From positions 1,494,730-1,558,729 of the forward strand of contig JARDVH010000167.1 of NCBI GenBank assembly GCA_030324005.1: a DNA stretch of 64,000 nt, written 5' to 3'. Positions 55,801-61,800 of this stretch are shown here, piece by piece. The position numbers were made by a program. This DNA comes from Negaprion brevirostris (Eukaryota). The stretch's first letter is position 1. Each line of letters starts with the position of its first letter.

Positions 55801-58800
55801 AACTGAAGGCTCTGTATTTAATGCACATAGTATTCAAAATAGGACAGATGAGCAGATGGCAATAAATAAGTACAATTTGACAGTCATTACAGAGACATGG
55901 CTGCAGGATGACACACAATGGTTCTTGAATATTAAAGAGTATGTGATATTTAGGTAGGACCGGAAGCTAGGCAAAGATAAAGAGGGTGGCTCTGTTAATT
56001 AATAATTAGCATACTAGAGAAGAACAACCTAAGTTCAGGAATCCAGGATGTAGAAGCGGTTTGGATAGAGATGAGGGTGGCACTGTTGTTAGCACTGCTG
56101 CCTCACAGCGCCAGGGACCCGCGTTTGATTCCTGGATTGGGTCATTTGTCTATGTGGAGCTTGCACATTCTCCCTGTGTCTGGGTGGGTTTCCACCAGGT
56201 GCTCACATTCTAAAAGGTGTGCTGGTGAGCTGCATTGACCTGAGCAGGCACCAGACTGTGGCAACTAGGGAAATTTCACAGTAACTTCATTGCAGTGTTA
56301 ATGTAAGCCTTACTTGTGACTAATAAATAAATTTTACTTTTCCTTTATCAGCAGGGTTCGTGACAAGTGTAATTATTCCATTTAAATGCAAACATTTTGC
56401 ACAGAACTCTTCAAGTAAGATCAGGTCATATTCATCCAAGTAGAGTTAGAATTCCTTTGAACTAAGCTTCTTTCTGCTGTTAGGATTCTTTTAACTGGTG
56501 GGTTGCTCATTTGCTTTTGATCAGGTATTTTACCAGCATCAAGGTTCAATTCATTTAACAGCCAATTTCAATTACTGACCAGGTGACATAATCAAGTTCC
56601 ACGTAAAAAACAAGTTCCATTCTAAGTTTTTCAAGCATACAAAGTATACAGGATTTATAATGATTACTTGTTTTCCCCCTCAGAAGAAGAAGAAAATTTC
56701 CAACAACCTCCACTGCCATCCAATGAACCTGAGAAGAAGCAACAGAGTGCTGGGAGTGGAACAGGTACAGTGACTGTTTTTGAATAGTTTAAAGTTAAAG
56801 GAGAAGATAATTCCAGCATTAACATTAGCCATTTTGATATGAAGTAAGCATATAATTCCCCTTGGAGCAGGGCAGTTTTCCTATCTTTGGCATCACTGGA
56901 TCAATTGGGTTTGGCTTGAGCATCATTTACCTCCCATACTCACTTTGCCACACTTTGTACTTATTTGGAAAAACTAGCTACCTATAAACACATTAATGTG
57001 TTTATAATACTGAAGTCTGGAACTTAATTTACCTTCTTTACTCCGCCTCTCTCTGCTTCATGTCTAACTACGCAGTGGGTATCATCAACTGGGAGATCAT
57101 CACACCCAATCATCACCCAATGACTGTACAGGTGCACTTTCCATCAGCGGTCACTGTATAGAGCAAAACAAAGTATTGCAGATGCTGGAAGTCTGAAATA
57201 AAAACAGAAAATGCTGGAAGTATTCAGCAGGCTGGGCCACATCTGTGGAGGAAAAAAAGATTTAACATAAGTTGATGATGTTTCAGGTTCTGATGAAAGG
57301 TCATTCACTTGAAAAGTTAACTGTTTTTCTCTTTCTACAGATGCAGCCTGATCTGCTTTTTTTAAGCATTTTTATGTCACTATATGGTGTTCAGGAATGG
57401 AAATTTGAATTGATTTTCCCTTTCTACTTCTAGTTCCCTGGTTGATATCAAACAACTTGGTGCAGCCATACTTTAAATCTTACTTGGAGGTATCTAGTAT
57501 TGCATCATTTTCTATAATTAGGCCATTTTGGTGTGTGCATTTTCCTTTTAAGAACAATTCCTATTTGATGATGATGGTGTTCTTTTATAGCTTAAAGTAC
57601 TTGTCCCTTAATTTTTAAAATTTTAATCAAGAAACTTGCCACTTCAAAACAGAGAAATACTTTTCCAAGTGTGAAAACATATTGGGTTTCCTTCAGACAG
57701 TTTGTGGTAGTCTGCTTCAAATGGCTCATAGTAGTGAGCAAGTTCCTTCCTCGTTTAGGAAGATGATTTTGATAGGGTGATACTGAATAGTTTTATCTGT
57801 TTAAAGTGCTAAGATTGACGTATAGAATTTATAATGATACCAATCCTGCTCGATGAATCGAGAAGCAGATTCATTGTCAAATAAGTCATTTGAGCATCTT
57901 TCTAACAGATGGACCGCAAATGTCTCTCTAGCAACCTCCTTTCTCAACAGGAAATTAAGCATTTCTGCTTAGTCTCGTAAACCTTTTAATATTCCTGAAC
58001 TATTCTCTTTCCAAAGTAAGTATTTGAACTAAAGGGATATTTCAAAAAAATTCTATTATCTACTAAGTGTCTCACCGAAAAGTGACATTTAAAACTTTTT
58101 AATTTTTTTAATTTTGAAGTTGTCTGTGTCATATGTGAAGTAATATATTTGATGATGTCATGTCTTGGATAGATAACTGAGGTTTGACCCCTGACCCTGC
58201 CAGTTGAGCATTGCATTGATGTAGAAGAATAAAATATATCTGAGACCTTCATATGGCTAATCTATTTAAAGTTTTTGTTGTTAATATCTATATTGGGGAT
58301 TTATGCAACTATAACATTTGGTTCAGATAGTTTTCTCCATAACCTGGCAACGGAACCTTTAAAGATCTGCATCTTGCCAAAGGTAGTTCTTTTGAAAGTT
58401 AATTGCATTTATGGAGGTGACCAGTTTTAGTAATCTAATTACTTTGAAGCATAATAGTTTCTCGAGTCCAACTGGAAACCAGTACGTGTCCTAGTTCCCA
58501 AAAAATGTTACCATACATAGTTAGTATGCTACCATACATAGTTAGTATGCTAAATTTTTCTTAAAAGTAATTATCTTTCTTCCAATCATCACTCCCTACA
58601 GTTTTCCCTATGGGGAGACAGGAAACCAGTCTAGCTTTTTTTCTCCATTTTTATGTACTTGTGAGGCAGCAGCAAAGCTCATAAGTATTGATTAGTGTAT
58701 GTGGGGGCCACTTGAGAAGGATTTATAAAATAAGCCAATTTAGTTCTGCCTGAATTACTTTGTAATGACTCAATTACCTTTTATTTCTGTGCAAAAGAGA

Positions 58801-61800
58801 TTTAAGTGAATAAATTAGCAGATCATCATTGGGGAAGTGTCACCACTAAAGGACAGTTTATAGATGTAATACACAATTGCTGTCACACCTTTAAGATTGT
58901 AATATAGACATCTGTGTATACTTTGTGGTTTAGTGAAACAGACTTCTGTCATTCAGAGGCTGACAAGGGCCCTAGAGTTACCCTGGGGAACAGCAATGTA
59001 GATGTCTCTGAAAAGGTCAACTTGACACAGGCTCGGACGATCGACCCACTGCTCTGTCTGCTTTGATAAAAATCAGATAAACTTAAGACTGTTAATTGAT
59101 CTGTAGCCCACTTAAATGTTGGCCATGCATATCTTCATTGCATGTGATTAGTGTAGAAAGCAAATAAGACTCATTGCTTAAAATGTGAAATGTTTGTGAT
59201 ACAGAATAAAAATCAAAACAGAACTTATCTAGAAAGGGCACAGTTGAGCAGTACGTTATCTGCCTTGGTTTCGCATATGTGTCTGTGAACTAATTATCAG
59301 TGTAACTCAATAGCTACATATGTTCAATTGGATCATGAAAGTGTGAACTTGCACAGATGCACTTAATTTCCAGTAGGTTGAAAACAATGAATTGTAAACT
59401 AGAGAACACAGAATTTGATAAGACAACTCTAAGACTCAAAGTGNNNNNNNNNNNNNNNNNNNNNNNNNNNNNNNNNNNNNNNNNNNNNNNNNNNNNNNNN
59501 NNNNNNNNNNNNNNNNNNNNNNNNNNNNNNNNNNNNNNNNNNNGGCAACTAGGGAAATTTCACAGTAACTTCATTGCAGTGTTAATGTAAGCCTTACTTG
59601 TGACTAATAAATAAACTTTACTGAGAGATGAGAAATGATAAAGGCCATTTGTGGGAGGCCCCCTACAATCCCCACATGACAGGATGGAGTATACAGGGAG
59701 AAATAATGGGAGTTCATCAGGAAGATATAGCAATAATCATGAGGGATTTTAAACTCCGTATAGACAGAAGAAATCACATGGACACGTGTAGCCTCGGTGA
59801 GTTCCTGGACTATTTTTGGGATAGTTTCTTATTCTGGGGCCAGCCATAGAGCAGGTTTTATGTGACCTGGTATTGTGCATCAAGATAGGATTAATTAATG
59901 ATTTCACAATGAAGGCAGCCAAGGTAATAGCAATCAGAATATAATTTAATTTTACATTTGAGGTTTTAAACTCAAATAGTGGCAATTATGGGAACATGGA
60001 AGTGAGCTTGCTGATTTGGTTCAGAGAGGTCAGTGGCAGACATTTATGACGAGATTTCAGAAAACACTGAATAGATGCATTCAACCAAGAAAGAAAACTT
60101 CCAATAAGTGAACCCACCATCCTTGGTTAACTGAAAAATTTAAAGGTAGTGTCAAACTTAAAGTAAAGCATATAATTGTGCAAGGAAGGGTGGCACTTTG
60201 CCAGAATATAAAAAAGCCAGAATGACTGAAGTGTTAGTGAAGAGGGAAAAATTAGAGCACAAAAGAATGCTAACTAGAAATATAAAAATGGCAAGAGTTT
60301 CTATAGATATGGACAAACAAAGAGTTAATGAAGTGAATATTGGTTCTCTGGAAACTGAGTCTGGGGAATTAATAATGGAAAATAAGGAGATGGCAGATGA
60401 ACTGAAGAGGTATTTTGCATTAGTACTCATCTTCATTTCAGAGGATACAAATAACATCCTAAAAATAACTGTGCGTCCAGAAATGGAAGAAAGGAACTCA
60501 GGAAAATTACAGTCAGCAATGAAGTCGTGCTGAGAAAATAGTTGGAGCTGCAGGCTTATCAATCTAGTGTTGATGGACTTCATCCTATGGTTTTAAAAAT
60601 GGCTAGTGATGTAGTTGACACATTGGTTTTAATTGTCCAAACTTCCCTAGATTTGAGGAAGGTTCCATTAGATTGAAAAATAGTGAATCTAACTCCTTTA
60701 TTAAAAAGAGGGAGAGAGAAAGCATGAAACGACAGGCCAGTTAGCTAAACATGTGAAAGAGGGAAAATGTTAGAAGCTATTTGTAAAGATGTTACAGTTG
60801 GGAACTTAGAGAAAAAATAAGGTAATTAGGTCAGGTTTTGCGAAGGGGAAGTCGTATTTAACCAATTTATTGGAGATATGTGAAAAGATAACGTTCACTG
60901 TGGATAAAGGGGAACCAGTGGGTGCTCTGTACTTGAATTTGATAAGGCATTTGGTAAGGTTCCACTTGAACTTCATTGTGGAGAATAAAAGCTCATGATG
61001 AGGGGATATCATGTTGGAATGAATGCAATATTGGCTTGCTCTTAGGAAACAGAGGATAGACATAAGTCATTTTCTGGTTGACAAGATGGAATGAGTGGTG
61101 TACCGCAGGCTTCAGTGCTGGGGGTTTAACTTCTTATAATTTACATAAATACCTTTGGTCCCTTCATCCAAGTTATGGTTGCTCAATTTACTGATGATAC
61201 AATGTTTGGTCAGAAAGTAAGTTGTGAAGAGGACACAAGGAGGATACAAATATATATATATATTACATATATATACAAGTAAGTGAGCAAAGACCTGGCA
61301 AATAGAGAAGAATGTGAGAAAATGTGAAATTTCCCATTTTGGCAAGAAGAATTAAAAAGAAACATTTTATCTAAATGGTGAGAGATGCAGAGGGGTCTGG
61401 GCGCCCTTGTGCATGAATGGCAAAAAATTAGTCTTGCAGGTACAGCAAGTAATTAAGAAAGCTAATAGAATTTTATCACTTTTTTGGTGACAAGAATTGA
61501 ATATAAAAGGATATGCTTCAGTTATACAGGGCATTGCTGAGATCACATCTGGATTACTGTGCACACTGCTGGTCTTATTTAAGGAAGGATATAAATGCAT
61601 TGGGAACAGTTCAGAGAAGATTGACTTGACAAATAGCTGAAATGAGAGGGTTGACATATGACGAATGGTTAGACAGGCTTGGCTTTTTGCTGGAGTTTGG
61701 AAGAGTTAGAAGTGACTTTATTGAAAAATATAATACCCTGAGTGGTCTTGATAGGATGGATGTGGAAAGGATGATTTGTGGGAGAATCTCGTACTTGGGG

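What the first reader, a model, noticed from the sequence alone, without database searches (positions are those of the whole stretch)
56067..59632. 3.55-kb SINE-bracketed cargo block inside a CR1, with a 9-bp TSD and apparently the 3' end of a foreign gene
Seen: the CR1 endonuclease frame breaks at ...VWIEMR (56075) and resumes as EMRNDKG (59624). agagatgag is duplicated at 56067-56075 and 59624-59632. The insert starts with a full V-SINE and ends with a SINE tail. The two tails are identical over 72 bp (56260-56331 vs 59544-59615), whereas a third copy (~26052-26140) differs at several sites. Between them lie ~3.1 kb of mostly unique DNA with a good 81-nt exon, a candidate terminal exon and a 3'UTR-like tract. 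Inference: this is either SINE-to-SINE read-through transduction or recombination capturing an intron-containing gene segment (composite-transposon-like), or an assembly chimera at a collapsed SINE. The 100-N gap at 59444-59543 makes the artefact explanation at least as likely.
[Added by the scan's program, not by the reader: the finding's places include an assembly gap (unread letters, written N; its length is only estimated) at 59444 to 59543. Whether the letters on both sides are continuous or in frame is not known: test that first.]
Basis: partly seen in the sequence, partly recalled or inferred. Interest (0 to 1): 0.72.

Follow-up and report, generated by a model that had tools for sequence, protein, structure and literature searches.

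The report
Probable assembly chimera at a SINE
A 3-kb piece of the SKAP2 gene seems to sit inside a small mobile element, but the layout is best explained by a fragmented short-read assembly taking a wrong turn in a repeat beside a gap, so it is most likely not a real insertion.

Summary
The sequence facts hold. A 9-bp duplication (56067-56075, 59624-59632) abuts a full 265-bp SINE on the left and a 79-bp SINE tail on the right. The two tails are 72/72 identical, then 78/79. Both copies of the duplication are read in the same codon phase by the flanking LINE-like frame.

The interpretation needs correcting. The cargo is not the 3' end of a gene. It holds one internal 81-nt SKAP2 exon (56684-56764, 85% identical to Mustelus asterias SKAP2 residues 250-276) with intron on both sides. 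The SH3-coding end of SKAP2 is absent from the whole window.

The right-hand "bracket" rests only on a 100-N join. The last 300 bp before the gap show no SINE similarity, and the next block simply starts 79 bp inside a SINE tail.

The assembly is highly fragmented: 15 N runs in 64 kb, five of exactly 100. Another 100-N gap has flanks that overlap 65/66.

The most likely case (about 0.8) is a plain 264-bp SINE insertion in a decayed LINE, plus a contig that left the shared 72-bp tail into another SINE's flank in a SKAP2 intron. Real SINE-homology-mediated capture stays possible (about 0.12). Pol III read-through transduction is very unlikely.

The parts
55793..56075 (+). 5' part of a decayed LINE-like element (frames ...ITETWLQ... 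and ...VWIEMR). The 'CR1 endonuclease' label comes from recalled motifs only.
   Evidence: ORFs. No Pfam hit and no homologue by word search.
56067..56075 (+). Left copy of the 9-bp target-site duplication AGAGATGAG
56076..56339 (+). Full-length SINE (head to tail). Similarity to the family can be followed to about 56334.
   Evidence: head copies at 25125-25243 (+) and 16640-16766 (-) align from SINE position 1 or 2. The tail copy 26056-26153 (-) aligns to position 259.
56260..56331 (+). 72-bp block identical to 59544-59615, proposed as the shared repeat node where the contig takes the wrong exit
56340..59443 (+). The 'cargo': SKAP2 intron, one exon, then intron. It is ordinary unique DNA with one dispersed repeat (57165-57267) and a 21-bp tandem duplication (58510-58551).
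56684..56764 (+). 81-nt internal SKAP2 exon bounded by AG and GT. It lies in the linker that precedes the precomputed SH3 families.
   Evidence: E 3.8e-4 against 5.8 billion proteins, 85% identity. (tblastn E 5e-8, P0001 residues 250-276). Splice sites read.
57434..57490 (+). Second exon candidate. Its phase fits the first exon, but it has no homologue and is not part of the Mustelus SKAP2 isoform.
   Evidence: Status open.
59444..59543 (.). 100-N placeholder gap. Continuity across it is unknown.
   Evidence: 5 of 15 N runs are exactly 100; the flanks of another 100-N gap overlap 65/66.
59544..59623 (+). SINE tail (SINE positions 185 to about 264) at the very start of the next gap-free block
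59624..59632 (+). Right copy of the 9-bp target-site duplication
59633..62063 (+). 3' part of the same decayed LINE-like element (frames EMRNDKG..., ...LTNLLE..., ...FTDDT..., ...YDEWLDRLGFLLEF...)
   Evidence: In-window homology: 61396-62036 against 18748-18102 (-), 63% over 678 bp. tblastn matches to 19427-19314, 46947-47036, 48653-48531 and 9310-9438.

Best explanation
The block is most likely an assembly artefact. The real locus is probably a decayed LINE-like element that carries one ordinary SINE insertion of about 264 bp (56076-56331 plus 59616-59623) with a 9-bp target-site duplication. A second SINE of the same family sits 344 bp upstream of an internal SKAP2 exon, and its tail shares an exact 72-bp stretch with the first SINE. 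The gap-free block 48511-59443 entered that shared stretch from the LINE side and left it on the SKAP2 side. The true continuation (shared stretch, duplication, LINE 3' part) was left over as the next block, starting at 59544, and the scaffolder placed it behind a 100-N placeholder. Shown: the sequence layout, the identity of the cargo exon, and the behaviour of this assembly at gaps. Inferred: the wrong exit itself, and where the cargo truly lies (far away, or elsewhere nearby).
For: 1. The two outer junctions are exactly those of a single SINE insertion. A full 5' end abuts the duplication on the left and a tail abuts it on the right. Both copies of the duplication are in the same codon phase of the interrupted frame.
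2. Nothing links the cargo to the right tail except the N run. The last 300 bp before the gap have only 7-8-nt chance matches to the SINE.
3. The identity between the tails starts at the first base of the right block and ends at the first T/C difference. This is what a collapsed exact repeat between two copies looks like.
4. The assembly is fragmented, with 15 N runs in 64 kb, 5 of 15 exactly 100. All 10 duplicate pairs of >=93% identity and >=30 bp have a member within 1 bp of a gap edge, reaching 31-79 bp into a repeat.
5. At the 100-N gap 2345-2444 the flanks overlap 65/66, so 100 N does not measure distance.
6. Block 48511-59443 is the longest of 16 gap-free blocks (10,933 bp against at most 6,993 bp). 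Split at the SINE it gives 7.8 kb and 3.1 kb, both of ordinary size.
7. The cargo carries an open, splice-flanked exon of SKAP2, and no other SKAP2 exon is in the window (1 of 13 tblastn matches has E<1). The only other gene pieces are EBF/COE exons on the other strand.
8. There is a precedent. False duplications are mostly separated by assembly gaps, and three ALDH2 exons were falsely inserted in ACAD10 beside gaps in an older zebra finch assembly (PMC9516828, passages read).
Against: No reads, mate pairs or second assembly could be consulted, so the wrong exit is inferred and not seen. The left tail is the only one of the 10 near-identical duplicate members that lies deep inside a block (3,106 bp from a gap), so the assembler did bridge this SINE here. 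Other SINE copies in the window are only 79-87% identical, so a second copy with an identical 72-bp tail has to be assumed. A recent real duplication would give the same identity and the same intact exon.
Confidence: 0.8

Rival explanations
1. Real DNA-level capture. A break in the LINE-embedded SINE was repaired using a homologous SINE in a SKAP2 intron as template (one-ended strand invasion, ectopic gene conversion or non-allelic recombination). Synthesis ran on for at least 3.1 kb through the exon, and the end was rejoined to the remaining SINE tail. This leaves the tail on both sides of the copied DNA.
For: The layout (head - tail - cargo - tail - duplication) is what such repair predicts. 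The tails are 78/79 identical. The exon is intact, as expected for a recent copy.
Against: The junction between cargo and right tail is not in the sequence, because it falls in the gap. This model too needs two SINE copies with near-identical tails, in a family whose other copies here differ by 13-21%. Such events are rare compared with repeat-induced misjoins in an assembly with a gap about every 4 kb.
Confidence: 0.12
2. RNA-level event. A transcript running from one SINE through the SKAP2 intron and exon to a second SINE tail was reverse-transcribed by the partner LINE from that tail (read-through transduction). Alternatively, the reverse transcriptase switched templates.
For: A single 9-bp duplication flanks the whole unit. 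LINEs of the stringent type start on a specific 3' tail, so an RNA ending in that tail could in principle be copied (PMC3747384, passages read). Template-switch chimeras are known for L1 (mentioned in PMC5499810, passage read).
Against: The unit starts at SINE position 1, which points to a Pol III transcript. The cargo, however, has 38 runs of T>=4 on that strand (12 of T>=5), the first at the SINE's last bases, and there are none inside the SINE. TTTT stops 65-95% of Pol III transcripts and T5 nearly all (PMC8466645, passages read). A Pol II pre-mRNA fragment would not be expected to begin exactly at the SINE's first base. The 3' junction is unseen because of the gap.
Confidence: 0.03

Closest known systems
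False chimeric gains and false duplications at assembly gaps (PMC9516828; passages read)
   Same: Exons of one gene appear inside another locus. A duplicated stretch lies on either side of an assembly gap. The assembly is short-read and fragmented.
   Different: Here the duplicated stretch is only a 72-79-bp SINE tail, and the misplaced piece is 3.1 kb. No read depth or read pairs could be checked.
Ordinary LINE-mobilised SINE insertion with target-site duplication, such as shark HE1 (V-SINE) with partner LINE HER1 (table in PMC3747384, passage read)
   Same: Full 5' end, tail, 9-bp duplication, and dispersed diverged copies in the window.
   Different: The family label was not tested. ARAGORN and Rfam found no tRNA-like head, and no reference SINE sequence was on hand.
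L1 and SVA 3' transduction (recalled from the literature; no paper read here)
   Same: Flanking genomic DNA would be carried along within one duplication.
   Different: Transduced DNA there lies after the element and ends in a new poly(A) tail, made by Pol II. Here the element would be a Pol III SINE, with many terminators in the cargo and a second SINE tail at the end.
Repeat-mediated ectopic recombination or gene conversion, as with Alu-Alu (recalled; no paper read here)
   Same: Homology between dispersed SINE copies would set the breakpoints.
   Different: Copying 3 kb of unlinked DNA into a SINE while keeping both tail copies has, to my recall, no described counterpart. No literature search was aimed at this.

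Membership tests
Single SINE retrotransposition into a LINE | Target-site duplication directly at both ends of the element | tested here: met
   9/9 identical at 56067-56075 and 59624-59632, with the neighbouring base different.
Single SINE retrotransposition into a LINE | The host sequence is continuous once the element and one duplication copy are removed | tested here: met
   The two ORFs read the duplication in the same codon phase (IEMR / EMR). Alignment to an outside LINE protein failed.
Single SINE retrotransposition into a LINE | Element length equals that of the family | tested here: not met
   As assembled, 3,548 bp lie between the duplications. The feature is met (about 264 bp) only if the cargo is an artefact.
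V-SINE (HE1-type) family | tRNA-derived head | tested here: not met
   ARAGORN found 0 genes in 55900-56500. Rfam gave no tRNA at E<=1 in 55400-60400. Decayed SINE heads often escape such tools.
V-SINE (HE1-type) family | Conserved central V domain, and a tail shared with the partner LINE HER1 | not testable with these tools
   No reference sequences were available. The family is known to me only from the table in PMC3747384.
CR1-clade LINE (host element) | Endonuclease and reverse-transcriptase domains | tested here: inconclusive
   Pfam gave no credible hit on 18 + 64 fragments. The best was RVT_1 at E 0.049, on the related copy 19016-19153 (-). The phmmer hits were repeat proteins. Motifs seen fit CR1 by recall only.
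Read-through (3') transduction | A transcript that can span element plus cargo | tested here: not met
   For Pol III: 38 runs of T>=4 in the cargo, the first at 56332.
Read-through (3') transduction | Cargo contiguous with the 3' priming tail | tested here: inconclusive
   The N run 59444-59543 lies between them, and the last 300 bp of cargo have no SINE similarity.
3' end of the SKAP2 gene | Last coding exons present (C-terminal residues 277-343, after the linker exon) | tested here: not met
   tblastn of P0001 against the window matched only residues 250-276 with E<1; 12 other matches had E 5.8-48.
Repeat-induced assembly chimera | Breakpoint inside a repeat shared exactly by two loci, next to a gap, with the next contig's start duplicated inside the previous one | tested here: met
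Repeat-induced assembly chimera | Discordant read pairs or a depth break at the join, and the cargo missing from its home locus | not testable with these tools
   No reads and no other part of this assembly were available.

The most novel reading that the evidence does not exclude
The block is real and recent. A break in a LINE-embedded SINE was repaired from a homologous SINE in a SKAP2 intron, copying at least 3.1 kb that includes an intact, splice-competent exon into an unlinked locus. SINE homology would then act as a vehicle for moving exons at the DNA level in a cartilaginous fish.
Probability: 0.1. Interest if true: 0.6.

Novelty: not a real feature. Interest (0 to 1): 0.1.

Why it matters
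If the block is an artefact, the value is practical. In this assembly, gap-free sequence that runs through a SINE cannot be trusted to come out at the right locus, and a 100-N run does not measure distance. A gene model for SKAP2 may lack this 81-nt exon at its home locus, or gain a false copy here. If the block were real, it would be a rare caught-in-the-act case of repeat-guided movement of an exon. Only reads can show that.

Tried and rejected
1. Outside homologues of the flanking LINE. The aim was to place both halves on one protein. phmmer of 59625-59849 against 1.84 billion representatives gave 3 hits. Pfam showed IQ repeats for one and fibronectin-III repeats for another; the third looks internally repetitive in the printed sequence. 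I took all three as spurious. The word search with 55793-55957 found no candidate. Pfam on 18 and 64 fragments gave nothing credible.
3. The second exon candidate (ORF 57409-57618) had 76 word candidates, none at E<=10. It is not in the Mustelus SKAP2 isoform. The joined two-exon model was not searched.
4. A PDB search with the exon ORF gave 0 hits at E<=10.
5. I tried to size the 100-N gap at 9438 from other LINE copies, but no usable alignment reached across it.
6. A cargo that is the 3' part of a LINE, which would make a SINE-LINE template-switch chimera, was rejected. The longest + strand frame in the cargo is 69 aa and nothing in it resembles a reverse transcriptase.
No cartilaginous-fish genome could be searched, so copy number and the home locus of the cargo stayed unchecked.
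Full report
**Observation**

AGAGATGAG stands at 56067-56075 and at 59624-59632. The word occurs 3 times in the window against 0.83 expected. Two of the three copies touch the outer ends of the SINE sequence. The bases just outside differ (t vs g), so the duplication is 9 bp.

The stop-to-stop frame 55999..56238 reads ...VWIEMR into the SINE, and the frame 59625..59849 starts EMRNDKG. In both, the first A of the duplicated word is a third codon position. The interrupted frame therefore continues once the insert and one copy of the word are removed. I read this from the coordinates and built no joined sequence.

The SINE runs from 56076 to about 56339. Two other head copies in the window (25125-25243 on +, 16640-16766 on -) align from its position 1 or 2, so 56076 is the family's true 5' end. 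The tail 59544-59622 matches 56260-56338 at 78 of 79 positions. The first 72 are identical; a T/C difference follows at 56332/59616. The third tail copy (26056-26153, minus strand) is 85-87% identical and shares at most 13 consecutive bases with it.

**The gap, tested first**

The run 59444-59543 is one of 15 N runs in the window. Five of the 15 are exactly 100 long; the other ten measure 10 to 510. So 100 N is a placeholder from a separate joining step, not an estimate.

At another 100-N run (2345-2444) the 66 bases before the gap and the 66 after it are the same sequence, 65 of 66 identical. Those two blocks really overlap, and the gap there is spurious.

At the gap in question nothing can be called continuous or in frame. 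The left side is unique non-coding DNA whose last 300 bp have only 7-8-nt chance matches to the SINE. The right side begins at SINE position 185. No reading frame crosses the gap. The cargo and the right tail are neighbours only by scaffolding.

**What the cargo is**

I searched the two exon candidates separately. The joined two-exon model was not searched.

- **First candidate.** The frame holding the 81-nt candidate (56626-56787) found one protein at E 3.8e-4 in 5.8 billion sequences, among 29 word candidates. It is src kinase-associated phosphoprotein 2 (SKAP2) isoform X3 of Mustelus asterias, 343 aa, 85% identical over exactly the 27 residues of the exon.
- **Its place in the protein.** A tblastn of that protein against the whole window gave 13 matches at E<=50. 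Only one is meaningful: residues 250-276 on 56686-56766, E 5e-8. The exon (56684-56764) is bounded by ...ccccctcag and gtacag.... In the Mustelus protein it is followed by residues 277-343, which close the protein. SH3 families are among its precomputed Pfam domains. Those residues match nowhere in the window, and neither do residues 1-249.
- **Second candidate.** The exon candidate at 57434-57490 agrees in phase with the first, but it has no homologue (76 word candidates, none at E<=10). It is not part of the Mustelus isoform.

The cargo is therefore 344 bp of SKAP2 intron, one internal exon, and at least 2.7 kb of the next intron. It is not a gene's 3' end.

**Is the cargo foreign to this locus?**

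The only other gene pieces found in the window are three consecutive EBF/COE DNA-binding-domain exons on the minus strand:

| Exon | COE1_DBD profile positions |
|---|---|
| 28546-28800 | 28-85 |
| 27369-27479 | 81-104 |
| 26534-26674 | 96-123 |

The first also matches solved COE1 structures at E 6e-27.

skap2 lies beside a HoxA cluster in a cichlid (PMC2080641, passage read). That SKAP2 and EBF genes are unlinked in human is my recall. The EBF exons, however, lie on a block separated from the finding by two further 100-N joins (41335, 48411). I therefore cannot say whether the LINE itself lies near EBF, near SKAP2 or elsewhere. 'Foreign' is shown only relative to the interrupted LINE.

**Labels**

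No tool confirmed 'CR1 endonuclease'.

- Pfam found nothing credible on 18 and then 64 fragments.
- phmmer against 1.84 billion representatives returned three repeat proteins that I take as spurious.
- A word search found nothing.
- The right part is homologous to other decayed LINE copies in the window: 61396-62036 against 18748-18102 at 63% over 678 bp, and protein-level matches at 19427-19314, 46947-47036, 48653-48531 and 9310-9438. One of those copies gives a weak RVT_1 match, E 0.049.
- The motifs visible fit CR1-clade elements by my recall only.

'V-SINE' is likewise untested. ARAGORN and Rfam see no tRNA in the head. The HE1 V-SINE of sharks and its partner LINE HER1 are known to me only from a table in PMC3747384. 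Sharks also carry Deu-type SINEs (PMC5499810, passages read).

**How this assembly behaves**

A self-comparison at >=93% identity and >=30 bp lists 10 duplicate pairs.

- In all 10, one member starts or ends within 1 bp of an N run.
- In 8 of 10, both members lie within 10 bp of an N run.
- The exceptions are one pair at 57 bp and the pair studied here, whose left member is 3,106 bp from a gap.

The blocks reach 31-79 bp into a repeat and stop there. The right block of this finding does just that, reaching 79 bp into the SINE tail.

The block 48511-59443 is the longest of the 16 gap-free blocks: 10,933 bp, with the next longest at 6,993 bp. Cut at the SINE it would give 7.8 kb and 3.1 kb, both ordinary sizes here.

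**Most likely explanation**

Both outer junctions are those of one plain SINE insertion. The simplest account is that the real locus is LINE - SINE (about 264 bp) - LINE. A second SINE of the family lies 344 bp upstream of the SKAP2 exon and shares an exact 72-bp tail stretch with the first. The block coming from the LINE's 5' side entered that stretch and left it on the SKAP2 side. The true continuation remained as a separate block beginning with the shared stretch, and was set behind a placeholder gap.

This account explains three things:

- why the identity starts at the first base after the gap;
- why it ends at the first T/C difference, after which the two tails end differently (...Ctttactg plus the duplication, against ...Ttttacttttcctttatc...);
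- why no sequence joins the cargo to the right tail.

Older short-read assemblies show the same kind of error. False duplications are mostly separated by assembly gaps, and exons of one gene have been falsely inserted into another beside gaps (PMC9516828, passages read).

I put this explanation at about 0.8. The wrong exit itself is inferred. Whether the cargo's home is distant or elsewhere in the neighbourhood cannot be told.

**Rivals**

- **Real DNA-level capture (about 0.12).** Repair of a break in the SINE from a homologous SINE in SKAP2, with synthesis running on through the exon, predicts the same layout and the same intact exon. I cannot exclude it. It also needs two near-identical tails in a family whose other copies here differ by 13-21%, and its second junction is hidden in the gap.
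- **Read-through transduction (about 0.03).** The unit begins at the SINE's first base, which points to a Pol III transcript. Yet the cargo has 38 runs of T>=4 on that strand (12 of T>=5, 3 of T>=6). The first starts at 56332, and there are none inside the SINE. TTTT stops 65-95% of Pol III transcripts and T5 nearly all (PMC8466645, passages read). A Pol II pre-mRNA fragment would not be expected to start exactly at SINE position 1.
- **SINE plus 5'-truncated LINE chimera.** Rejected, because the cargo has no frame longer than 69 aa on the + strand and nothing in it resembles a reverse transcriptase.

**Unchecked**

- No reads and no other part of this assembly or of any cartilaginous-fish genome could be searched.
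- The cargo's copy number, its home locus and the SINE family's young copies are therefore unknown.
- Supplementary files were not consulted; none bears on a claim made here.
- The N runs were not filled or looked up.

**Verdict**

The 'gene 3' end' and the 'bracket' are not supported. The feature is most likely not real. Interest is low unless reads show otherwise.

Noticed in passing
window 28546-28800, 27369-27479, 26534-26674 (minus strand): Three consecutive exons of an EBF/COE transcription factor DNA-binding domain (Pfam COE1_DBD profile 28-85, 81-104, 96-123). The first matches solved COE1 structures at E 6e-27. No exon for profile positions 1-27 was found among 150 of the 152 minus-strand frames of 32-75 aa listed for 24.5-45 kb; it may lie in the gap 28906-29415.
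   Followed up: partly
window 2279-2344 and 2445-2510: The flanks of the 100-N run 2345-2444 are the same 66 bases (65/66 identical). The two blocks overlap, so the gap is spurious.
   Followed up: yes
window 2258-2344, 2445-2510, 16073-16155, 38204-38279, 41435-41513, 47373-47403: Six block ends beside N runs lie in one repeat family (93-98% identical over 31-79 bp). Blocks of this assembly regularly stop a few dozen bases inside high-copy repeats.
   Followed up: partly
window 57434-57490 (+): An exon-like stretch with a strong acceptor and a GT donor. Its phase fits the SKAP2 exon 670 bp upstream, but it has no homologue and is absent from the Mustelus SKAP2 isoform. It could be a chance frame or an unannotated alternative exon.
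   Followed up: partly
window 57165-57267: A dispersed repeat inside the cargo, with copies at 11601-11673 (-), 38065-38118 (-) and 39693-39764 (+), 76-82% identical. Family not identified.
   Followed up: no
window 58510-58551: A perfect tandem duplication of a 21-bp unit in the SKAP2 intron part of the cargo (read by eye).
   Followed up: no
window 9310-9438, 46947-47036, 48531-48653: Three further LINE C-terminal fragments (motif ...Y.ERL.RLGL.SLE.R..RGDLIE...) each end at or within about 20 bp of an N run. LINE 3' ends seem to be another common place where blocks break.
   Followed up: no
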